Below, in pieces: positions 8,479 to 48,946 of a DNA stretch of 64,000 bases. The notes under the pieces were generated by a model that saw nothing but the letters and a program-made list of their open reading frames with translations, was not told the origin of the DNA and did not search any database. Source of the stretch: Eledone cirrhosa. Lineage: Eukaryota. The position numbers and the translations under genes were made by a program. Position 1 is the stretch's first letter, and each line of letters starts with the position of its first letter. The stretch lies in assembly GCA_964016885.1 (NCBI GenBank), contig OZ024740.1:100068001-100132000 (forward strand), read 5' to 3'.

Positions 8479-8514
<36 letters not shown>

Positions 8515-8722
8515 TATGTATGCGTACATACATATATGTATACAGACGTACAGTAGTATGTATATATATACATACATGCACATATATATATATATATATG
8601 TACGTATCGATTCACCGAACATTTATTATAATGCTCGGTTTGTCTGTAAACAAACATCCCGAATTAAGCTGTTCAGTGTTTAGCAACCATCGTTGCCCTT
8701 TTGTTCAACACTGACAAAGGAA

Positions 8723-8763
8723 CGATGTACTAGTTTCAAGCTTATTAGCTATCGTCAGTACCG
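8723..8763 (-). ncRNA. Minimal type I hammerhead ribozyme (copy with a stem I mismatch)
   Basis: CGGTA-CTGACGA-T-AGCT(AATA)AGCT-T-GAAA-CTAG-TA-CATCG on the minus strand. Confidence 0.7.
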
Positions 8764-9480
8764 TATACCTTCCTGTCAGATGATTGAACGTCTGAAAATA
8801 TATACTTTCCTTATGCATATTAACGGCTGAGCAGCCTAATTTGTATATCGAGTGAGTTAATCGGCCGGGTGCACCGAAAACGATAAATGGAGAAAATGAA
8901 ACGAAATTTCATTTCTCACTCTTAGTACGGCTGTTACCTAAATATAAGTATGAATACGTGCATACATATATGTATAGAGACGTACAGTAGTATGTATATA
9001 TATACATACATACACACATATATATATATATGTACGTATGGATTCACCGAACATTTATTACAATGCTCGGTTTGTTTGTAAACAAACATCCCAGTACATC
9101 GTTCCTTTGTCAGTGTTGAACAAAGGGGCAACGATGGTTGCTAAACTCTGTACGGCTTAATTTGGGATGTTTGTTTACAGATAAACCGATCATTATAATA
9201 AATGTTCGGTGAATCCATACGTACATATATATATATGTGCATGCATGTATATATATACATACTACTGTACGTCTGTATACATATATGTATGTACGTATGC
9301 ATACTTATATTTGAGTAACAGCCGTACTAAATGTGGGAAATGAAATTACGTTTCATTTTTTCCATTTATCGTTTTCGGTTCACCCGGCCGATTAACCCAC
9401 TCGATATGCAAATTGGGCTACTCAGCCGTTAATATGCATAAGGTAAGTATATATGTTCAACAATCTGGCAGGAAGGTATA

Positions 9481-9521
9481 CGTTGCTGACGATAGCTAAT
9501 AAGCTTGAAACTAGTACAGCG
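9481..9521 (+). ncRNA. Minimal type I hammerhead ribozyme
   Basis: CGTTG-CTGACGA-T-AGCT(AATA)AGCT-T-GAAA-CTAG-TA^CAGCG. Palindromic loop III, GUA cleavage triplet (after 9516), stem I CGTTG/CAGCG. Confidence 0.8.
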
Positions 9522-9902
9522 CTCCTTTGTCAGAGTTGAACAAACGAGCAACGATGGTTGCTGGACACTACGGCTTAATACGAAATGTTTGTTTACAAAC
9601 ACACCGAGCATTATAATAAATGTTCGGTGAATCCATACGTACATATATATATATGTGTGCATGTATGTATATATATATACACACTACTGTACGTCTGTAT
9701 ACATATATGTAAGTACGTGTACATACTTATATTTAAGTAACAGCCGTACTAAGAATGGGAAATGAAATTTCGTTTCATTTTTTCCGTTTATCGTTTTCGG
9801 TGCACCCGCCCGATTAACCCACTCGATATGCAAATTGGGCTACTCAGCCGTTAATATGCATAAGGTAAGTATATACGTTCAACAATCTGGCAGGAAGGTA
9901 TA

Positions 9903-9943
9903 CGTTGCTGACGATAGCTAATAAGCTTGAAACTAGTACAGCG
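9903..9943 (+). ncRNA. Minimal type I hammerhead ribozyme
   Basis: Same core as 9481-9521, with cleavage after 9938. Stem I extends past a bulge through GGAA/TTCC and CTGGCA/TGTCAG. Confidence 0.8.
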
Positions 9944-10145
9944 TTCCTTTGTCAGTGTTGAACAAACGAGCAACGATGGTCGCTGGACACTACGGCTTAA
10001 TACGGGATGTTTGTTTACAAACACACCGAGCATTATAATAAATGTTCGGTGAATCCATACGTATATATATATATGTGTGAATGTATGTATATATATATAC
10101 ATACTACTGTACGTCTGTATACATATATGTAAGTACGTGTACATA

Positions 10146-10220
<75 letters not shown>

Positions 10221-10377: not shown

Positions 10378-10411
<34 letters not shown>

Positions 10412-10415
<4 letters not shown>

Positions 10416-11438
10416 ATAATAATAAATTTGAAAACTAAAATCCAAAGAGGGCTCGATAAGGATAAATATATATCAAATATATAAGAACCGTAGAGCAAAT
10501 ATTTATTAAAATAACAGATTAAATTTTAAGCAAAGAAACGCTGCTTTCACCCTTAACGGGATCTTCTGAAACCCAAAAAGTCAATCTGTGAACGCAGAAG
10601 TGAATATGTCAAAAAACGTTGCAACCAGAGGAAGACAGGAAGACGATACTTTGGTTCGTCGAAACGTTCCCTGGCAAAAAACGGGAATAAACGAAGATAA
10701 TAAGTTACTATTTGGACCGTGAAAAACAATTACACGCAAAGACAAAACCACGTTTATGGTATACAAGAAGTCGTAGACTAATATTCTATTAGGTAGTTCA
10801 TTTCAACGAGACGTTCTCTGGAAATGAACGTAAAAAAACGAAGATAATACGTCATATGTGGAGCGCGAGAAAAATTGCACGCAAAGACAAAACCACGTAA
10901 ATGTTATGGATACGTGTATGTATTTATTTAATTTCAATTACCTCTGTATTTTATTTACTTTATTCTTAACTCTGAAGCCGTGAATCAGTCGGTTTCCTAG
11001 TTAGAATTTGAGTCTATGACTTCAGTTTTACGATTTACGTGGTTTTGTCTTTGCGTGCAATTGTTCTCCACGCTCCACATTTGACGCTCCACATTTGACG
11101 TATATCTTCGTTTTTCCGGTTCATTGCCAGAGAATGTCTCCATGAACCACCTAATAGAATATTAGTCTACGACTTTTTTTATACCATAAACGTGGTTTTG
11201 TCTTTGCGTGTAATTGTTTCTCACCGCTACAAATAATGACGTATTATCTTCGTTTTTTCCCGTTTTTTGCCAGGGAACGTTTCCACGAACCAAAGTATCG
11301 TCTTCCTGTCTTCCACTGGTTGCAACGTTTTTTTGAAATATTTACTTCTCCGTTCACAGATTGACTTTTTTAGTTTCAGAAGATCCCGCTAAGGGTAAAA
11401 GCAGCGATTCTTTGCTTAAACTTTAATCTGTTATTTTG

Positions 11439-11443
<5 letters not shown>
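10412..11443. mobile_element. Head-to-head inverted insertion (~400-bp arms) in (TA)n, Penelope-like pLTR candidate
   Basis: Arms ~10499-10902 and ~11033-11443 are reverse complements and contain an internal ~145-bp duplication. A degenerate hammerhead-like motif (CAGAAGA-T-CCC..GGG-T-GAAA) lies near the outer ends. Confidence 0.65.
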
Positions 11444-11526
<83 letters not shown>

Positions 11527-11665
11527 TAAGAAACACAGTAAATCGTGTGTCCAATATTACGAGGGTTGAAAAACCACAATTGTTTGAAATATTTAACCAT
11601 GAAGCAGACAGAATGATAAAATAAATTTAAATTATATTATACAAACCGCCTCAATAACAATTATA

Positions 11666-11746
11666 TCTCTCGGACAGATTAGGGATAATCTGTTTCGCCC
11701 AGAGTGTGTTTGCAACAGATAATCCACGGGCATCATCAGCGAGAGA
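11666..11746 (-). ncRNA. Type I hammerhead ribozyme
   Basis: Exact reverse complement of 11917-11997. Confidence 0.9.
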
Positions 11747-11916
11747 ATCTGATTAAATGCGACAAACACCTAGTACTAACGTTCACACAGAAAAATGAAT
11801 TCATCACCTCGTGTGCCGTAAGTCAAAAGTGGTGTGAGTGTATTGGTTAGAAACAACAGTCCAACACACGCAACTTAGTAAGCTCACCTACTTGAGGATA
11901 CCGATTTTAATCAGAT

Positions 11917-11997
11917 TCTCTCGCTGATGATGCCCGTGGATTATCTGTTGCAAACACACTCTGGGCGAAACAGATTATCCCTAATCTGTCCGAGAGA
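11917..11997 (+). ncRNA. Type I hammerhead ribozyme
   Basis: Stem I TCTCTCG/CGAGAGA, CTGATGA, extra T, stem II GCCC/GGGC with an extended arm, GAAA, stem III CAGATTA/TAATCTG (loop TCCC), GUC cleavage after 11990. Confidence 0.92.
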
Positions 11998-12252
11998 TAT
12001 AATTATTATTGAGGCGGTTTGTATAATATAATTTTAATTTATTTTATCATTCTGTCTGCTTCATGGTTAAATATTTCAAACAATTGTGGTTTTTCAACCC
12101 TCGTAATATTGGACACACGATTTACTGTGCTTCTTACTACATATATATTATTATAATGCTCAGTATTTATACTTAGAGCTTATTGATTACATGGTTTCAG
12201 TATGAGTTATTAACTCTAACTTTCATTTATATATATATATATATATATATAT

Positions 12253-13040
12253 GTTTTAATCCAGCTCCACCGGCTCACGCTGGGAAGCGAAGCCTGCAGC
12301 ATTCAAGCCATGCTTAATGACCTCGTTGAGGGCAGCATGGTGTGGAATGCGGCCGGCACTGTGGCCACAGGAAATCGGGTGGAGGCTGAAACAGTCCACG
12401 GTGGAAGTGCAGCGACATTGGTGTGGCTGGCAGATCCGGAGGCTGAGCCTCAGGAAAACGCCGATGCGCAGGCTATGGTTGTCTGGCTGCGTGCCAGTGG
12501 AGAAGGATCGCAGGTCATGGAGCCAGGCACCACTGGAGGCTGCACCAAAACAAGCAAGGTGGTGCTGCTGGTCGAGCTGGCGCGTGAGCCTGTCCGAGGC
12601 CAGGCTGCACTGGATGGCATCCCAAGTGCGTTGGGGGTCTTGACGTCAACAGGAGGAGGAGAGACGTCTACTGGGCTAAGTCCCAGCCGGTCCCACGTCT
12701 AACAGGCGGCCTCATGTTCTCTGAACACAGAGAGTTCTGTTGTGTTTTGAAAAATCCTGCTGACGAGGACGTGGCACGAAAGATACGCCGGCAAAGCTAG
12801 TGAGATCGGGGACCGGAGGCCAAGGCCGCCATACCTGACAGGTAAAGTGGCCTGTTGCTACCCTATGTCGTCAAACTTGACGTTGCATATCTCTTTGTCT
12901 GCTGCTCGGATACAAGTATCAAGGTCAGCGAGGAGAGATGTCTGGGTGTAGCACGGAGCGCTGCGGAGTGTATAGAGGAGCTTCGGAATGGCAAAGCAGT
13001 TCCTCAGCAGAAAGAGAGAAGCTTAATAATGGAAAAGTTA
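12253..13040 (-). mobile_element. CRE-clade non-LTR retrotransposon fragment (post-RT region and zinc knuckle)
   Basis: The minus strand reads FLLRNCFAIPKLLYTLRSAPC, QATLPVRYGGLGLRS..LALPAY, SGAWLH, then LRIGVFLRLSLRICQPHQCRCTSTVDCFSLHPISCGHSAGRIPHHAALNEVIKHGL..EP. It is truncated at a TA run just before the RLE PD motif. Confidence 0.85.
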
Positions 13041-29666: not shown

Positions 29667-32070
29667 TTTGAGTCTCAGTCATTGATGTTATTTAACTGGA
29701 AAGTTTGTTGAAATGAATATCAAGCCGCTACCTGCAGCCTCAGATATTCTGGACATATTCGGAGGGTTCTTGCTGTTCCCAGCAAGCATGCTTTTGAAGT
29801 GTTCCAAAAAGCGGGGCTGGACTAATTTTCTTTAACCATCCTTGGAAACTCTTTGAGATAGTACCTAGTGCGCCTATGACAATCGGGACCACTTTGACTT
29901 CATGGCAGTTCCAAATCCTTTTTACCTCCCACTTTAAGTCCTGGTATCGGTTAATTTTCTCCCTCTCCTTTTCTTGCACTCTCGTGTCAAATGGGCAGGC
30001 TACATCTACAATCAGGCATTATCTTTTTCCGTTGTCCAAAACCACCAGGTGAGGCCTATTGTGTTCCAGTTTCTTGTCCGTCTGTATCCTAAAATCCCAT
30101 AGCACCTTCACCTGATCGTTTTCTATCACCGACTCTGGCTTATGCTCATACCACTTCTCAGAATGTGGTAAATTGTTTACTTTGCATAGATGTCAGTGGA
30201 TCACCCTGCCTATCACATCATGTCTCCAGCCTTTATAGTGAGTCAGGGCTAGGTGTTTACATCCGGATACAATGTGAGCCACAGTCTCCTCTCTCTCTCT
30301 GCACAGATCCTACACAGTGAGCTAGACTCCTCCTTGTAAATATGGTGTTTCACCCACTTCGTTCTGAGGGCCTGCTCTTGCGCAGCCATTAGCATTCCTT
30401 CTGTAGCCTTTTTAAGGTTTCCTCTTTTTAACCAGTTCGATGTCTGTGGATCTCTAAATTCAGTTTTCTTAAAGAAGGTACTATGAAAGGATTTTTCATG
30501 AAGGTTGCTCTTCCTCCTTGTTGTTATTTCCTCCTTGGGCATACCCTGGTCTATTGTCCTCTCCTTCAGTACAATTTTGAGCATTGACTCCCTACTGTCA
30601 GCCACATATTTGTGCAGGTTGTTTTTCTCCATCTGAACACAGTCCTCTATGCTGATAAAACCTCTTCCACCTTCAGGTCTCTTTAAGTAGAGTCTATCGA
30701 CATCACTCCTCTTGTGGAACATGTTGTAGATAGTTAATAGCTTCCTAGTATTCCTATCCATTTCTTTTTGTTCAGCAACATTCCATTTCAGAATTCCCGC
30801 ACTGTACCTAATAATAGACACAGCTCGGGAATTCACTGCACTTATGACATTCCTACTATTTAGATGTGATTTTAATACGCTCCTTACTCTTCTAATGTAC
30901 TCAGATTTTATAAATTCCTTCATTTTTTTGTTCTTGATGTCATCTGCCTCCAGAACACCTAAATACTTGTATCCTTCTTCAGTGACAATTTCCTTTATTA
31001 TCTTACCTGTTGGTACCTGGATTCCATTGCTTCTGCTCAATTTACCCCTCTTCATCACTAGGACTCCACACTTATTAATACCAAATTCCATATATATATC
31101 ATTGCTGAAAATATGGACAGTGTCAACAAGTACATCCAACTCCTTCTCACTTTTCCGAAAGAGTTTAAGATCGTCCATGAACAGGAGGTGGTTGAAGGTA
31201 AGCTCTCTTTTTCCCAACTTGTGTCCTGCTCTCACTTTTCCCAATATAACAGTCAGAGGTATCAGGGCAAGGACAACCAGCAGAGGGGACAAACTATCTC
31301 CCTGGAAGATACCTCTGTCAATCTTCACGCCTCCCAAGGATTCTCCACCCGATGTTAACTCTGTTTTCCAGGACTTCATACTTTTGCTCAACAACTGTCT
31401 GATGTTATCTGCCACCTTGAAGATCTCTAGGCTTTTGGTTATCCAAGAATGAGGTACCATGTCGAATGCCTTTTTGTAATCTATCCATCCCATGGCAAGA
31501 TCAGTGTGTCTCCTCTTGCAATTCCTCATTACCATCTTATCAATAAGTAACTGGTCTTTTGTACCATGGGACTTCTTTCGGCATCCTTTCTGTTCGTCCA
31601 GTAACAAGTTGTTTATGTGGAGGTGATAGCAGATTTCCTCAGACACAATGCTTGTTAACAGTTTCCACATTACGGACAGACATGTGATAGGTCTATAGTT
31701 GGTAACATCATTACCCTTGATTCAGACTTTCATTACCAGAACTGTGGTACCTTTTGTCAACCACTCTGGTACCTCACCCGACATCAAGCTGTCATTGAAC
31801 ATGGTTGTCAGTTTTGGGGGGAGGGATGTTATATTTTTAATCCAATACCCCTGCACACCATCTGGGCCTGGTGATTTCCAGTTGGTTAGTTTTTTGGCCT
31901 GCCCTTTAAGAGTTTCAACTGTGATACTCAAATCAGGTTCTTGGTGTGCTTGTTCACTAATCTCTTTTTGTACTGTCTCAACCCACACTGCCTGACTATT
32001 ATGTTCAACATCCTGCTCCCATATTCCACTCCAGAATGTCTTAGTCTGTTCTGCCTCAGGGATCAAGTCG
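29666..32070 (-). mobile_element. Dong/R4-clade LINE, family A, 5'-truncated (473-aa RT ORF segment at 30249-31670)
   Basis: KSPGPDG, WIDYKKAFDMVPH, GIFQGDSLSP, FMDDLKLF, YKYLG, CRIC knuckle, and RLE K..RYQDL. The 3' end abuts a long (TAA)n. Confidence 0.93.
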
Positions 32071-36207: not shown

Positions 36208-39200
36208 GGCGTTTTGAAATGTCTGACAGGTACCGATTGGATTTCCCGAATATGCCAATGTGGACTTGGAAAAACCGCATCGGGTCATCCAGATCATATC
36301 TAGATAGAGTATTTTGTAGGGAAATAGATGGCTCTAGCATAGGCTGTCGACAATTCAAGATAGTCAGCTACACGGACCACAAATTTCTGATCTGTGTGGT
36401 TGATTTAGATAGGCTTCATAGACAAGGATTCGGCTACTGGAAGCTAAACGCGTCATTACCAGCGCGCAAGGCCTACAGAGACCGGATTAGCGAAATAGTT
36501 AAGCGGGCGTTGACGGGGCTCATCGTCAACAAGAAGTGGTGGTTTGCTATGAAAAGAGCGATAGAACAGAGTCCATTAGGTTTAGTAAGGCTTTAGCAAT
36601 AGAGAAAAATAGAGCAGAGGGAGTACTAATTAGAAAATTAGACGAGGCGCTTAGCAAAGGCATAGCGACCGACGCACTTGCGGCGAAATTGGCCCTTGAC
36701 TAATTTTTCAATGCAAAGCACGATGGCTGCGTTGTCAGAGCTAGGTTGCGTGCTCTCAAACAGGAGGGAACGAAAGCCGTTCAATGGGCCCGAGTGGCGG
36801 AGGCGCGTCGTGGCCACAAAGCCACGATCCGGTCTTTGGTGGACCACGACGGGCGCATGCTACTCGATCCCGGGCAAGTGTGTGAAGCTTTTCAGCGACA
36901 CTTCGCTCAGCTGTTCGGGGGCGGCAGCGGCGGGCTGGATTGAGGGATAGACTTTAGTGTCTACCTCGACGGACTGCCGCTATCTCGACCACTGAGGCAG
37001 AGTGATGCGAAAAGCCGATAACAGCAGCTGAAGTACGGGAGGCAATGACTGGCTGCACAAGGGCTAAATCGCCTGGTTTGGATGATCTGCTCTATGGACT
37101 TTACGTACAGATACCAGACTTGTTCGGAGGCCTCTTGGCACACGTCTACTGCAACTGGCAACAGAACGGGAGAATTCCTAGCTCTGTGAGCCGAGAAGCG
37201 GTGGCGCTGCTGAGAAAGGATCCGAACAAGAGGGATAACATAGATAAGTTCAGGCCCATAACTCTGCTAGACACAGAGTTCAAGATTTTGGACAAGGTGA
37301 TAGCAAAGAGGTTGGTGCTTGTCCTTGGTGGTCTGGTGGGAGAGGCGCAGACATGCGCCATTCCGGACAGATCCATCCCCGACAACCTCCACCTCATGCC
37401 ATACATCGTGGAGAGGGTAGCTAGGGAACCTGGCACGGGTGGGTCCTTGATCAATTTAGATCAGTCGAAAGCTTTAGATAGGGTCGACGATCGTTATCTG
37501 GCGGCAGTCTTGAGGGCGGCTGGCTTTGGGCCCGTCTTCATGGGGCTGGATTACTTCACTGCCATGCACAGCGACATCTGCTCTGTGGTGAGAGTTAACC
37601 GTCACCTTTCGGAACCGTTCAACATCATGCGCTCGGTCCGCCAAGGATGTCCCCTCTCGTCCCTCTTGTACGTATTGACTCTCGAGCCATTACTGCACAA
37701 ACTGGAGACGTTGAGGTGAGTCCAGCGCGAATTAGGATGCGGAAGATCCGTGTCAGCATATGCGGACGATGTCACCGTAGTGGTGTCGAACGCCAAACAC
37801 ATCGAGGCGATCGGAACTACACTAAGAGAATACGAAGCGGTGACAGGAGCAGTCGGTGGGCAGGTGACAGGAAATGTCGATGGGCCTGCAGCTCGGCACC
37901 TGGAGAGGCAGGTTCATGCCATCCAAGAGCGTCTTCGGGCGCTGGACGGACGGGCCGGTTACATTGCTAGGGGTCTGGTTCGCTCCGGACCTCCAGACGG
38001 ACAAAAACTGGGACGAAGTGACGAGCATGGTGGCTTCTCTCACCCAGAAAGAGGCGGAGAGGAAGCTATCCCTGAAAGGTCGAGCGGAGGTGGCTAACGC
38101 GTACATCGCATCCGTCATCTACTACCGCCTCTCCATCGTGCCTTGACCTAAGCTTCGCCGGACTACGCTGGAGCGTTTGCTCTTTCGCTTTTTGTGGAAG
38201 GGACGCGCTCCGATGGTCAGGCGGTCCATATGCTGTCAACACCCGCTACGTGGAGGGCTGGGCATGCCGTGGCTGATGATGCGCAGACACGCGCTCAGGC
38301 TACGACATATCCACCTCTTCCTCGACGGTGATCAGGTGTGGTCGCCGTTTGCTAGACACGTCTTTCCTCAGCTCGTCTCCTTGACGGAGCTGCAGTCCTG
38401 GGTCAAGCGAAGACCGAGAGGGAGCGCTTGGAGACTGGAATGTCTTCAGGCGCTCACAGCCCTCGACCAATCGGGCAATGTGATCGGTGGAAACTCCACC
38501 TAGGCGTTCTATAGAGGATTAGTGGAGGGGAAGAGCGACGACGTACTTGGGGAAACTCTAGGCGTCGAGGAAAATCAACTAGCCAATCTCTTCGGAAGAA
38601 GTTTCGGGCCGGGGCCTATGGACAACTTCCAGAAATCCCTGGCCTGGCAGTGCTACCGGGGAGCTTTGCCAGTTCGGGATAAACTCTACAGGCATGGAGG
38701 GGTCGTCAGCTGGGCATGTCCAAGATGCGCGCAGAGTGACGAAACCGTCCTGCATGCACTCGTCCAGTGTCCGAGCATTACTGACTTGTGGGTTTATGTC
38801 GAACACCTGCTGTCGCGTATAGAACGAATCCGACTATCAGCTGAGTCCATCGTGAGGATTGCCCCGCCCTCATCCTTTAGCCAGGAAGGGCAGGCATTTT
38901 TTATCTGTCTGGTGGCCATGGCGAAAGAGATAGTATGGTGGACGCGCCTGAAAGGGCTGAAGACGAGCACTTACTTCTTCGGTGATGCCCTGATTAACTT
39001 TTTCCAATTTCATTTGAAAAGGAAAATTAGGGTAGAGAAGGAAGTGCTCTCTTCCCAGCTTTTTGTTGAAAGATGGGTGAGAGAGGCAAGAATGGCCCGA
39101 GTGAATGAACCTACTCTGAGTATATACCTGTAAATTGAAGGTGGAAAACTGGGAGAGGACACTAGCCTTGTTGGTCAGGGTTTAATGGGCTTTCTCCACG

Positions 39201-44323: not shown

Positions 44324-44475
44324 GGAAGGATTGGTAGAGTGTCAGACACCATGTTTTGCAGCAAGGAGTTATGGCCCTTTATGTTCTGAGTTCAAAACCT
44401 GCCAAGGTTATCTTTGCCTTTTATCCTTAAAATAAAGTACCAGTAATGCACTGGAGTAATTGTTAGCCTTGTACC
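44324..44475 (+). mobile_element. Nin/Deu-core SINE fused directly to Tx1
   Basis: The SINE ends at GCCTTGTACC and Tx1 ORF1 sequence follows immediately. Confidence 0.8.
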
Positions 44476-47400
44476 GGGAAAGCTCTCCCACTCCCACTAC
44501 CCCCCCCCCCCCCATTATACACATAGACAAAACAATAAACCCACACACAGACACAGAGACACTCACAGCCACAGACCCTTTGTCTTCCAGCAGCGAAGAT
44601 GAAGGAAAACCCAAAACTGCAAAAAAACAGAAAACTCACAAAAAAAAACCCCAACAAAACACAAAAGCATACACAACAAAAAATACAGACACCACTAGCG
44701 CAAACACTTCCCCAATAACATCATCACCAACAGCAACATCGACACCACCTCCACAATCCCCGAAACGCAAACAACCTAAACAAACACAAGTACAAATCAA
44801 CACACAAATACCTGAAATTGCAGACACCACACCTACAACAAACACAGACATACCCGAAACAACATCACCAAAACCATCACCACCACAGTCACCAAAACGA
44901 AAACAAATAAAACCACACCAACAAAATGTTGAAAACTTCGTGCTTGTCAGAAGGGCCAACGATAAACTGATGGCCCTCTTAGCACAAAGCGAGGACATTC
45001 AAACAGAGGGGGAGATTTTTAAAATGAGCACATTTTGCGTGCCAGAAGATTTGCTTCTGGTCCGAATGTCACTCATTTCCTTTAAAGAAATTCGAGAGAG
45101 TTTTCCTCAAGATGTGGGAACCCCGAATGTGAAACCCACATCAAGACTTTTAAAGGGGTTCCCAAAAGAAAACCCACCAACCATGGAGGTCGAACAACCC
45201 AACCTTCACAAGACCCCGGGAGGTAAGTAAACCTTGCCTCTCTCTCTTAGCTTACCAATATGGCCATATTAAGAGTAGGAAGTTTAAACGTTCGCGGCCT
45301 GGGGTCACCCTGGAAGCAGGATCGCCTGCTCAACGACCTCAGGTCGCTGGAAAGGGATGTGATTGCCGTCAGCGAGACCAGAATTTCCAACACACGCGCA
45401 CTAGCCCCCATTTTCGATGACTCTGAGATCTTCGCATCTGTTAGTAGACCGGTAATGGGGGTGGCAGTGCTGTTTAGGAAAGGACTGGATCTCAAGGTAA
45501 GGTCGATCTTCCGGGATCCGGATGGTAAGTTGGTGGTCTTGGAGTTGAGCAGTAGCGAAGGTTGTGCCTTTAGACTGCTGGCCATCTACGCCCCTACAGA
45601 GGCCGGACGACCGGACCTCTTTAGGTGCCTGGAGACCTTTCTGGGTATGTGTCGCCCTTTACTGTTAGTGGGGGACTGGAATGGCATCTTAGACGCACGC
45701 TGGGATTATGTAGGAGTAGCCGATAGGAGCGGGGGGTGCAAAAGCCTCAAGCACCTACTCAGCCAGTTCCAACTGTCTGACAGGTATCGACTAGATTTCC
45801 CCAATGTGCCAATGTGGACATGGACCAACCAAATGGGGGTCATCTAGATCGTATATAGACAGGATCTTCATTAGGAAAATAGATAGAAATAGTGTGGGCT
45901 GCCCACTTTTTAAAATGGTCGCCTACTCAGATCACAAATTTGTGATCTGTACGGTCGACCTAGATAAAACGCGTAGGTTAGGACCGGGTTACTGGAAGCT
46001 GAACATGTCATTTCCGGCACGTAAGGCTTACAGAGACCGAGTCAACAATTTAGTTAAGCAAAAGTTGACAGGGGGGATCATCAACAACAGATGGTGGGGG
46101 GCTCTCAAAAGAGATTAGAGTACTTCGATAGTGTTCAGCAAAGAACTAGCGTTAGAGAAAAATAGAAAGGAGGGGGAGCTGGTAGATAAGTTAGACGAGG
46201 CTATTTGTAGTGGCATTGCAAATGACGTGCTAGCGGCGAGAATGGCATTAGACCATTTCTTCAATGCCAAACACGAAGGTTGCATTGTCAGAGCTAAGGC
46301 GCGTGCGCTGAGAAACGAGGGAATCAAAGCTGTTCGATGAGCCCGCATGGCGGAGGCGCAGCGTGGTAATAAAACCACAATTCGGTCTTTGGCGGACCGA
46401 GACGGACACGAGATAAGTGATTCCAAGTGGATGTGTGAGGCCTTTCGCCAGCACTTTGCTCGGTTGTTCGGGGAGAGTGGCAAGTCAGAGAGAGTAGCGC
46501 ATTTCAGTCCCTACCTTGACGGCTTGCCGCGCATCTCGATGGTCGACGCTGAGCGCTGCGAAAGGCCAATTACTTCAGCCGAAATTCAGGATGCCCTTGT
46601 CGGCTGCATGAGGCGCAAGTCACCCGGTTTGGATGGCCTGCCCTACGAGCTTTACGTAAATATGCCAGACTTGTTCTCCGAACTCCTCGAAGCACTCTAC
46701 TGCAACTGGCAGCAGAATGGGAGTATTCCCAGTTATGTGATCAGGGGAGTGGTGACGCTGATAAGGAAAGACGAGAACCAGAGGGATACATTAGTCAACT
46801 TCAGGCCCATAACTCTGCTCAACACAGAGTTTAAGATTTTGGCCAAGGTGTTAGCAAAGAGATTGGCGCTTGTCGTCGAGGATTTGGTTGGGGGGGCGCA
46901 AACTTGTGCAATCCCAGCCAGTTCCATACACATCAATCTACACCTCATGCGATACATCATAGAGAGGGTTGAGTGTAAACCTGGCTTCGGTGGGGCAATG
47001 ATCAATTTAGATCAATCGAAAGCATTCGATTGGGTCGACCATCGGTATCTGGAGTTTGTCCTCAAAGCAGCTGGCTTCGGCCCTGTCTTTAGAAGTTGGA
47101 TCGCTGCAATGCACAGCAGCACACGCTCAGTGGTCAAGGTTAATGGCCACCTCTCGGAACCATTTTGGCTCTCCCGATCGGTCCGTCAAGGGTGCCCTCT
47201 CACTTCCCTTCCCTTCTGTATGTATTGACTCTCGAGCCTTTACTGCGGAAGCTGGAGCTGTTGCAGGGCATCCCGCTCGAACCGGGACGTGGAAAGGCGG
47301 TGTTGGCTTATGCGTACGACATCACCGTGATGGTGTCGAACACCTCAGAAATCGAGGTGGTCGGCACCTTATTGAAGGAATATGAAAGGTTGACAGGAGC

Positions 47401-48946
47401 CAAACTTAACCCAGAAAAGTTGGTGGGCTTGCAGCTCGGAACCTGGAGAGGCAAGCCCATGCCGTCCAACAGCGTCGTGGGGCGCTGGACGGACGGACCG
47501 GTAAAGTTGCTCGGGGTTTGGTTCGGACCGGACCTCCAGATGGAAAAGAATTAAGATGAGGTAACGAGCAGAGTAGCCAGTCTAACCCAAAAATGGGTTG
47601 GGAGGGAGCTATCACTGAAAGGTCGCGTGGAGGTGGCGAATGCGTACATCACGTCCATCATCTACTACTGCCTGACCGTCGTGCCTTGTCCCCATCCACG
47701 CCTCATCAAGTTGGAACGGCTCCTCTTCAAATTCTTGTGGAGGGGACAAGTTCCGTTGGTGAGGCGGTCCATCTGCTGCCAGCACGCTCTACGCAGAGGG
47801 CTGGGTATGCCGTGGCTAATGATGCACATACATGCGTTGAAGCTGCGACATCTCCAGATATTCTGCCTCAACGGTGAACAGGTGTGGTCGCCGTTTATCA
47901 GACGGGCCTTTCCGCAGCTCATTTCTTTGACTGAGCTGCAGTCCTGGGTCAAGAAGAGACTGAGATTGGGTGACTGGCACCTGGAATGTTGCCAGGCACT
48001 CACTGCCCTCTACCAAGCGGGCAATGCGATCAGTGGAACTTCCACTCTCGAGTTCTATAGAGGATTAGTGGTGGGCAAGTGCGATGATGCACTCGGAGAA
48101 GCTTTGGGCCTCCACAAAGTCGAACTGACCAGTCTGTACCGGAGGACTGTTGAGCCGGGGACGATGGACAATTTCCAGAAATCCCTCGCTTGGCAGTGCT
48201 ACCGGGGAGAATTGTCGGTTCGAAATAAACTCTACAGACACGGAAGTGCTGTCAGACGGACCTGCCCAAGATGCGCACAGAACGACGAAACCGTTCTGCA
48301 CGCACTTGTCCAATGTCCGTGCATTACTGACTTGTGGAGTTATGTCGAACAGCTACTCTCGTATGTGGAACGAATCCGGCTATCGGCCGAGTCCATAGTG
48401 AAGATCGATCCACCGCCTTCGAAGAGCAGGAAATTTTCCTCTGTCTGGTGGCAGTTCCAAAAGAGGTTGTATGGTGGACCAGGTTAAATGGACTGAAGAC
48501 AGACACTTTTCTCTTCGGCCAATCCCTCATCAACTTCTTCAAGTTTCACCTGGAAAGGAAGGTGAGGGTGGAGAGAGAAGTGCTGCCCCCCAGTACATTT
48601 GCTAAAAGGTGGGTGAATGTGGCGAGAATGGCTCGTGTGAATGGGCCTACTCTGACAATGCGCCTATAGGCTAACTAACTTGAGGAGAGGGGTGCTCTCC
48701 CTGGGTGCCCTAGAAGCGCAGGGTGGTTCAGGATTGGTGGGGTACCCGAGTCACCCCAGGGTCGTCCACCCCCTATCAGGGAATTTATTTTGTTATATTT
48801 ATGCATAGTTTATTTTATATTTTTATATTTTCATTGTTAAATTAGTCTTGCCATTGTGCACTTTTACTCGACCTTATTGTAAACTCCCACTGTCCCTGTC
48901 TTTGTATTGTCCCCTACATGTCGGCCCTTGTGGCTAATAAATGAAA
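44476..48946 (+). mobile_element. Tx1-type LINE: ORF1 C-terminal part (to 45230) and complete but frameshifted ORF2 (45260-48669; APE, RT, zinc knuckle)
   Basis: APE motifs GSLNVRGL, AVSET, AIYAP, GDWN, IDRIF, SDH; RT motifs KSPGLDGLP, LDQSKAFD, QGCPL; knuckle CPRC..H..C; 3' UTR ending GCCCTTGTGGCTAATAAATGAAA. Confidence 0.95.

What the first reader, a model, noticed from the sequence alone, without database searches (positions are those of the whole stretch)
11522..12141. Two intact full type I hammerheads in a young inverted pair
Seen: perfect stems I (7 bp) and III (7 bp), the CUGAUGA/GAAA core and a GUC triplet, on opposite strands in near-identical arms. Stem II is unusually long and carries a TGTT/AACA subhairpin. 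Inference: a transcript from either strand contains one sense ribozyme and its antisense copy. It could therefore self-cleave or form ~236 bp of dsRNA, a possible ADAR or Dicer substrate.
Basis: partly seen in the sequence, partly recalled or inferred. Interest (0 to 1): 0.75.

Follow-up and report, generated by a model that had tools for sequence, protein, structure and literature searches.

The report
Self-locking hammerhead retrozyme, Penelope-style insertion
The two hammerhead motifs are back-to-back pieces of one copy of a common, non-coding jumping repeat, likely pasted in by a Penelope-type enzyme, and the ribozyme is predicted to be held off by pairing with its own upstream sequence and, in any read-through RNA, by the mirror-image arm.

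Summary
Both hammerheads are real (arms 233/236 identical), but they are not a two-ribozyme device. The locus (11522-12231, about 90 nt longer than reported) is one insertion of a ~470-nt non-coding repeat family with 544 exact-core copies in this 3-Gb genome. Of 105 loci, 67 are back-to-back pairs. Arm ends fall at two fixed sites and pair one short with one tailed end (41 of 49; tail+tail 0): the Penelope-like footprint. A full-length Penelope-like element here has the same two-site geometry and a similar GCTC..GAGC hairpin; an inverted pair of its terminal repeat lies next door. Stem II is 4 bp, not long. Its 27-nt loop pairs with the 5' leader, a duplex kept across seven subfamilies and two divergent families and predicted to silence the core in circular monomers. 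The right arm has lost most of that leader. Read-through RNA is predicted to form the hairpin rather than cleave (124 kcal/mol). No RNA run was available and cleavage is untested. The scan noted paired ends and a hairpin lock before, on other DNA. Verdict: a variant of animal non-LTR retrozymes.

The parts
11522..11904 (-). Left arm: nearly whole monomer (unit positions 3-385), ending at end site a (no tail)
   Evidence: BLAST to a natural 474-nt monomer, 95.6%
11906..12231 (+). Right arm: 5'-truncated copy (unit positions 149-474), ending at end site b (with tail)
   Evidence: 95.1% to the monomer; the same downstream sequence runs into the next unit in tandem loci
11917..11997 (+). Type I hammerhead: stem I 7 bp, CUGAUGA, extra U (11931), stem II 4 bp (11932-35/11963-66), 27-nt loop II, GAAA, stem III 8 bp, GUC; predicted cut 11990/11991
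   Evidence: sequence
11666..11746 (-). Identical type I hammerhead in native context; predicted cut after 11673
11762..11769 (-). Distal leader strand that pairs with 11713-11706 in loop II (the predicted lock); absent from the right arm
   Evidence: duplex -18.7 kcal/mol, z=-3.6 for the left leader against -5.8, z=+0.9 for the right; fold
11751..11755 (-). Proximal leader strand (UAAUC) that pairs with GAUUA at 11724-11720; candidate stem I/loop II pseudoknot
11908..11912 (+). Proximal leader strand kept in the right arm; pairs with 11939-11943
11943..11949 (+). Loop II segment that can also pair with the 5' strand of stem III (misfold of the isolated motif; not conserved)
12142..12231 (+). 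Tail of about 90 nt between end sites a and b, present on one arm only; holds a GCTC..GAGC hairpin at 12158-12179
11882..11904 (-). Diverged copy of the hairpin that follows site b (start of the monomer), at the inversion junction
   Evidence: sequence compared with other copies
11443..11521 (.). (TA)n(TG)n target tract, shared with the neighbouring inverted terminal-repeat pair of a Penelope-like element
12232..12253 (.). (TA)n target tract on the right; no target-site duplication can be told

Best explanation
This locus is one back-to-back insertion of a ~470-nt non-coding hammerhead repeat (a retrozyme), likely written into a TA tract by a Penelope-like reverse transcriptase priming at two start sites, and its ribozyme is predicted to be held off by pairing between loop II and its own 5' leader. 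Shown: unit, copy number, tandem and inverted layouts, paired ends, (TA)n targets, leader-loop complementarity. Inferred: tandem source loci give multimers that are cut into monomers and circularised; the enzyme nicks both strands and primes once at site a and once at site b, each followed by a GCUC..GAGC hairpin; the 5' ends of the two copies are joined. The short proximal helix likely braces the active fold as a pseudoknot, while the full duplex would keep circles uncut until a protein or refolding opens it. This copy is likely a dead end; host read-through would give a long hairpin as a by-product.
For: Unit of 473-478 nt repeated in tandem at 7 loci; no element ORF seen in the loci screened. 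544 exact cores, control 0; 906 against 41 with a looser pattern that also catches other families. 67 divergent, 36 single-strand, 2 convergent of 105 loci; of 49 with both ends at a or b, 41 a+b, 8 a+a, 0 b+b, p=4e-7. Inverted 5'-truncated copy, one-sided tail and (TA)n bias are described for Penelope-like elements (PMC8557442; PMC3846280); two RT start sites explain the tail in vitro (PMC11167929). The extra base after A9 is a PLE-hammerhead trait (PMC4209133). N7, the extra bases and loop III vary between subfamilies, while the common stem changes keep pairing by G-U. Leader-loop duplex z -3.6 to -5.5 in 7 of 7 subfamily representatives and -4.3 and -4.0 in two divergent families, each best with its own loop. 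In circular folds the distal helix forms in 12 of 13 evaluable monomers and stems I and II are at most 0.15 in 13 of 13. A full-length element (terminal repeat, ORF, terminal repeat; one homologue carries GIY-YIG PF01541) has two end sites about 88 nt apart and a similar hairpin after site b.
Against: Cleavage and transcription are not shown. No compensatory pair among 50 close copies; double changes appear only against the divergent families. Four of 13 native leaders (E3, D1-D3) were not significant over 32 nt. I chose the representatives, the shuffles were mononucleotide, and ViennaRNA cannot score pseudoknots, so lock and brace are not separated. 5' starts are not enriched near the cut site (4 of 130, p=0.72); 3 loci start exactly there against 0 and 1 at two control positions, which is only suggestive. 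The candidate partner shares no alignable terminal repeat with the unit, has no Pfam or PDB match itself, and my motif rule found the hairpin at only one of its two sites. Arms were closer to each other than to any other locus in only 11 of 30 inverted comparisons, so a single template is not shown. Loci were picked by BLAST rank or by core patterns.
Confidence: 0.75

Rival explanations
1. Same element, but the leader-loop II pairing is purely activating: a long pseudoknot that docks stems I and II. The left ribozyme would then be the faster one and the right arm crippled.
For: About 40% of hammerheads use a stem I/II pseudoknot (PMC3088659). The proximal helix starts next to both stems in all 14 representatives. 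Families E1 and E2 have only 2-3 bp of stem II and may need the brace.
Against: After the distal helix only about 5 nt of loop II remain in this subfamily to span a helix of up to ~19 bp (my geometric inference). The distal leader lowers the predicted hammerhead share from 7e-2 to 1.5e-4 in a nested model.
Confidence: 0.3
2. The locus is a selected sense/antisense switch or dsRNA source in a host transcript.
For: 99% identical arms 148 nt apart would form a strong hairpin in any read-through RNA.
Against: The layout is the family's default product, recent, and set among other inserts in TA tracts; the window's long ORFs with Pfam hits are all retroelement domains (6 of 20 scanned); no A-to-G excess in family copies.
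Confidence: 0.05
3. Loop II is a second substrate strand, so that one core serves a type I and a non-circular (CSG) fold.
For: AUCUGU-U pairs with the stem III 5' strand in hammerhead register, and the next 8 nt pair with an upstream strand; type CSG exists (PMC10085705).
Against: 22 nt separate that upstream strand from CUGAUGA; subfamily L144-L148 changes the segment without compensation (decoy -3.6 against -12.8 kcal/mol); loop III, part of the pairing, varies freely.
Confidence: 0.04
4. The ribozyme is a passenger: copies spread from uncut multimeric RNA and cleavage is not needed.
For: Hammerhead mutants do not impair insertion by the anole element in vitro, and no reads ended at its cut site (PMC11167929); no clear pile-up of 5' ends here.
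Against: Core and stems are kept across subfamilies only 67-80% identical while free positions vary.
Confidence: 0.12

Closest known systems
Metazoan non-LTR retrozymes (Cervera and de la Pena 2020, PMC7229834: parts 2-3 of 6, Discussion and passages read; Li et al. bioRxiv 10.64898/2026.07.22.740005: part 1 of 5 and passages)
   Same: Non-coding A+T-rich unit with one type I hammerhead, tandem copies, co-occurring Penelope-like elements.
   Different: Unit ~470 nt, slightly above the 150-450 nt reported; mostly short inverted insertions rather than long arrays; 8-bp stem III; 27-nt loop II. That paper predicts the ribozyme free to fold in most metazoan circles (some mussel ones excepted); here it is predicted to be self-blocked.
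Penelope-like elements with C-terminal GIY-YIG endonuclease (PMC8557442 and PMC3846280: passages; PMC11167929: parts 1-2 of 4; PMC4209133: passages)
   Same: Inverted 5'-truncated copy, head-to-head arms, optional tail on one end, (TA)n targets, extra base between A9 and G10.1.
   Different: No ORF; tail ~80-90 nt rather than 30-40; full monomeric stem III instead of a minimal palindromic one.
Hammerheads with a stem I/stem II pseudoknot (Perreault et al. 2011, PMC3088659: passages)
   Same: Base pairing between loop II and the strand beside stem I.
   Different: The pairing here extends to about 15-19 bp, longer than the 4-6 bp examples in the passages read, and may switch the ribozyme off.
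Viroid, satellite and plant LTR-retrozyme hammerheads blocked by alternative folds (stated in the PMC7229834 Discussion; the satRPV paper seen only as a reference title)
   Same: Core sequestered in the circular monomer.
   Different: Type I, animal and genomic; the blocking helix is built from loop II and the immediate leader.

Membership tests
Type I hammerhead ribozyme | CUGANGA, GAAA, NUH and three stems in C-G-S order with stem I open | tested here: met
   one extra U after A9
Type I hammerhead ribozyme | Covariation in the stems | tested here: inconclusive
   0 double changes in 50 close copies; G-U-preserving subfamily changes, and a double change at stem I pair 5 in 3 of 37 rows
Type I hammerhead ribozyme | Match to an Rfam hammerhead model | tested here: not met
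   the long loop II is a likely cause (inference)
Type I hammerhead ribozyme | Self-cleavage | not testable with these tools
   3 loci begin exactly at the cut site against 0 and 1 in controls: suggestive only
Non-LTR retrozyme | Short non-coding unit with one type I hammerhead, present in tandem | tested here: met
   473-478-nt period at 7 loci; 15 cut-to-cut monomers of 424-556 nt; this locus itself has no tandem pair
Non-LTR retrozyme | Expressed as linear and circular monomers | not testable with these tools
   no RNA run listed
Penelope-like insertion | Inverted 5'-truncated copy in head-to-head layout | tested here: met
   67 of 105 loci divergent, 2 convergent
Penelope-like insertion | Optional tail on one end only | tested here: met
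   41 a+b, 8 a+a, 0 b+b of 49
Penelope-like insertion | Microsatellite or AT-rich target | tested here: met
   flanks listed; window flanks
Penelope-like element (autonomous) | RT plus GIY-YIG ORF within the element | tested here: not met
   no ORF in the unit; it is non-autonomous
Penelope-like element (autonomous) | Unit derived from the terminal repeat of an identified parent | tested here: inconclusive
   no alignable similarity to the candidate's loci; only the end-site motif is shared
Type CSG hammerhead | Block C uninterrupted and internal substrate strand conserved | tested here: not met
   22-nt gap; uncompensated change in L144-L148

The most novel reading that the evidence does not exclude
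An animal retrozyme family whose hammerhead carries its own switch: loop II and the 5' leader form a short brace in the active fold and a long lock in the circle. The Penelope-like protein that recognises the GCUC..GAGC hairpins at the two start sites both opens the lock and primes both DNA strands. This locus is a natural experiment, with one locked and one unlocked copy of the same ribozyme.
Probability: 0.25. Interest if true: 0.72.

Novelty: new variant of a known kind. Interest (0 to 1): 0.42.

Why it matters
Two questions left open in the papers read become testable with one small RNA: how animal retrozyme circles avoid cutting themselves (PMC7229834 calls for an unknown blocking mechanism), and which enzyme and cis-signal mobilise them. 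The family offers a candidate lock, a candidate start signal and a candidate partner. The inverted pair itself is ordinary for Penelope-type insertions, and the scan has recorded the same footprint for several other families in this genome, which caps the surprise.

Tried and rejected
Rfam gave nothing. No RNA holder was listed; three runs of unknown kind from one sample hold many family variants as contigs and say nothing on expression. A 19-nt loop II pattern in metagenomes gave 13 hits, none with a hammerhead core. The CSG/decoy reading was rejected. Parent search by homology: the element beside L009 shares no alignable sequence with the unit in its 19 other loci; the L009 junction may be a template switch or an insertion. 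Splice sites like those of Drosophila Penelope: the GTGAG and the AG before stem I are not kept in all subfamilies; not pursued. A-to-G test: the first version counted single arms only (40 against 48) and would miss edits shared within a locus; redone per locus it gave 44 against 54, and 4 against 5 for shared changes. Discard: searches (structure string misregistered by one column; control matched older subfamilies), the 'Pa' tallies (register not fixed). The covariance model R1 was built but not used for any search. Literature searches: no paper on this family or on a leader-loop II lock in a retroelement hammerhead; subscription journals are missing, and I read no supplements, including the family lists of PMC8557442, PMC7229834 and the preprint.

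Full report
Observation. The arms 11522-11757 (-) and 11906-12141 (+) match at 233 of 236 bases. Each holds a type I hammerhead: 7-bp stem I, CUGAUGA, one extra U, a 4-bp stem II, a 27-nt loop II, GAAA, an 8-bp stem III and GUC, with the cut at 11990/11991 on + and after 11673 on -. Rfam finds nothing.

The element. The window lies in a 3.0-Gb genome; an earlier scan note calls the animal an octopod, which I did not test. A DNA search gave 1357 candidates, 40 scored. A core pattern that leaves loop II free gave 544 exact matches against 0 for the control. The repeat is a unit of 473-478 nt that runs head to tail at 7 of the first 30 loci, and no element ORF was seen in the loci screened. On that unit the left arm covers positions 3-385 (11904-11522) and the right arm 149-474 (11906-12231). 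At least seven subfamilies, down to about 67% identity, were sampled.

Insertion footprint. Of 105 distinct loci, 67 are divergent pairs, 36 single-stranded and 2 convergent. Ends fall at two A+T-rich sites about 80-90 nt apart and abut (TA)n. Among the 49 divergent loci with both ends at these sites, 41 pair a short with a tailed end, 8 are short-short and none tail-tail (p=4e-7); the other 18 have an end elsewhere. Loci were chosen by BLAST rank or core pattern, so the fractions are not genome-wide estimates. Contig C1 alone has 11 divergent pairs with two intact cores among 92 hits (counted by hand). This is the Penelope-like layout: inverted truncated copy, tail at one end, microsatellite targets (PMC8557442, passages; PMC3846280, passages). 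For an anole element, the tail is the stretch between two internal RT start sites and both DNA strands are cut and extended (PMC11167929, parts 1-2). I infer one priming event at each site, on opposite strands. The window's arms share several minority alleles and differ at 3 positions (98.7% against 98.3% for the best other locus), so they came from the same or a very close template; only 11 of 30 inverted comparisons had arms closer to each other than to any other locus.

Candidate partner. Both end sites are followed within about 10 nt by a GCTC..GAGC hairpin. The inverted element next door (about 10410-11445) is the terminal repeat of a full-length element: 18 of 20 loci of an ORF family carry it, and loci such as L197, L199 and L206 show repeat, ORF, repeat. 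The ORF has RT-like motifs and a C-terminal cysteine linker followed by a GIY-YIG-like stretch, read by eye. It has no Pfam or PDB match, but 567 homologues; most of the 120 listed are about 700 aa and one is annotated PF01541. 'Neptune-like' is my label, from the linker described in PMC8557442 and from recall. Its repeat ends at two sites about 88 nt apart, and the sequence after its second site resembles the one after our site b; 389 copies read through that site. My motif rule scored the hairpin at only that one site of the partner, and there is no wider similarity. It is a candidate supplier of the enzyme, not a demonstrated parent.

The ribozyme. Among 50 close copies there is no compensatory pair. 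Across 37 representatives N7, the 0-3 extra bases and loop III vary, the common stem changes keep pairing by G-U, and three divergent elements show a double change in stem I. The extra base is described as typical of Penelope-type hammerheads (PMC4209133, passages). The middle of loop II is conserved, and its complement lies in the 30 nt upstream of stem I: a 5-bp proximal and an 8-bp distal helix. The duplex beats shuffled leaders in 7 of 7 subfamily representatives (z -3.6 to -5.5) and in two families of different sequence (z -4.3, -4.0), each best with its own loop; four other native leaders show only the short proximal helix. In circular folds of 15 natural monomers, 2 lacked an intact core; of the other 13, 12 form the distal helix and none gives stems I or II above 0.15. 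The Discussion of PMC7229834 predicts a freely folding ribozyme in most animal retrozyme circles and asks what blocks it. The right arm here starts after the distal strand (z=+0.9): predicted hammerhead share 7e-2 against 1.5e-4 for the left. These folds ignore pseudoknots, and pairing of this kind activates many hammerheads (PMC3088659, passages), so lock and brace remain rival readings; I favour a short brace plus a long lock because too few loop bases are left to span the full helix.

In read-through RNA the antisense arm comes first on either strand and the hammerhead is 124 kcal/mol less stable than the hairpin, so dsRNA, not cleavage, is expected. Whether the locus is transcribed is unknown: no RNA run was listed, and the window's recognisable ORFs are retroelement domains. 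Family copies show no A-to-G excess. The isolated 81-mer is predicted to misfold through a loop II/stem III pairing that is not conserved. Genomic traces of cleavage are weak: 4 of 130 starts lie within 6 nt of the cut (p=0.72), and 3 loci start exactly there, one as a palindrome centred on the cut, against 0 and 1 at two control positions.

Earlier scan notes. Paired ends and a Penelope helper were noted for several other families of this genome. A note on a 'hairpin-locked' hammerhead concerns a locus that aligns to this unit at 67% over 92 nt, so the lock idea was reached before on a diverged copy; I found it before seeing that note. These notes are not independent support.

Verdict. A real pair of hammerheads in an ordinary Penelope-style insertion of a retrozyme family. 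What lifts it above routine is the conserved leader-loop II duplex, the natural locked/unlocked pair at this locus, and a shared end-site hairpin that names a candidate partner. Interest 0.42; new variant of a known kind.

Noticed in passing
window 8505-10160: A second hammerhead repeat family (~420-nt unit, minimal hammerhead with palindromic stem III at 8758 -, 9486 +, 9908 +), also as divergent plus tandem arms in TA tracts.
   Followed up: partly
window 10410-11445: Inverted pair of the terminal repeat of a full-length Penelope-like element, tail on one arm only; no canonical hammerhead core seen in it.
   Followed up: yes
L009 1411-2755 (-): The 3' part of that Penelope-like ORF and its UTR is joined directly to 1.8 units of the retrozyme with no TA tract at the joint: possible template switch.
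   Followed up: partly
L004, L008, L083-L102: Loop III reads GGGA in the youngest subfamily and TCCC in the window's subfamily: exact reverse complements, as if the hairpin loop had flipped.
   Followed up: no
L144-L154: Older subfamilies carry three bases between A9 and stem II, more than the one or two said to be known in PMC10085705.
   Followed up: no
L187 1477-1533: Both arms begin at the predicted cut site and overlap as a palindrome centred on it.
   Followed up: partly
G000:C1:42757803-42759269: Four tandem units, 472 nt apart, share the same stem II change, as rolling-circle copying or recent duplication would give.
   Followed up: no
L136-L140: Another long-loop hammerhead family with a C-A mismatch at the base of stem II and a proximal leader-loop helix of different sequence.
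   Followed up: partly
L151, L152, L020 ~850-960: Fold-back copies in which the core is enclosed in a near-perfect hairpin.
   Followed up: no
window 30249-31721, 37006-39133, 44460-48487: Fragments of non-LTR retrotransposons (RVT_1, zf-RVT, endonuclease).
   Followed up: no
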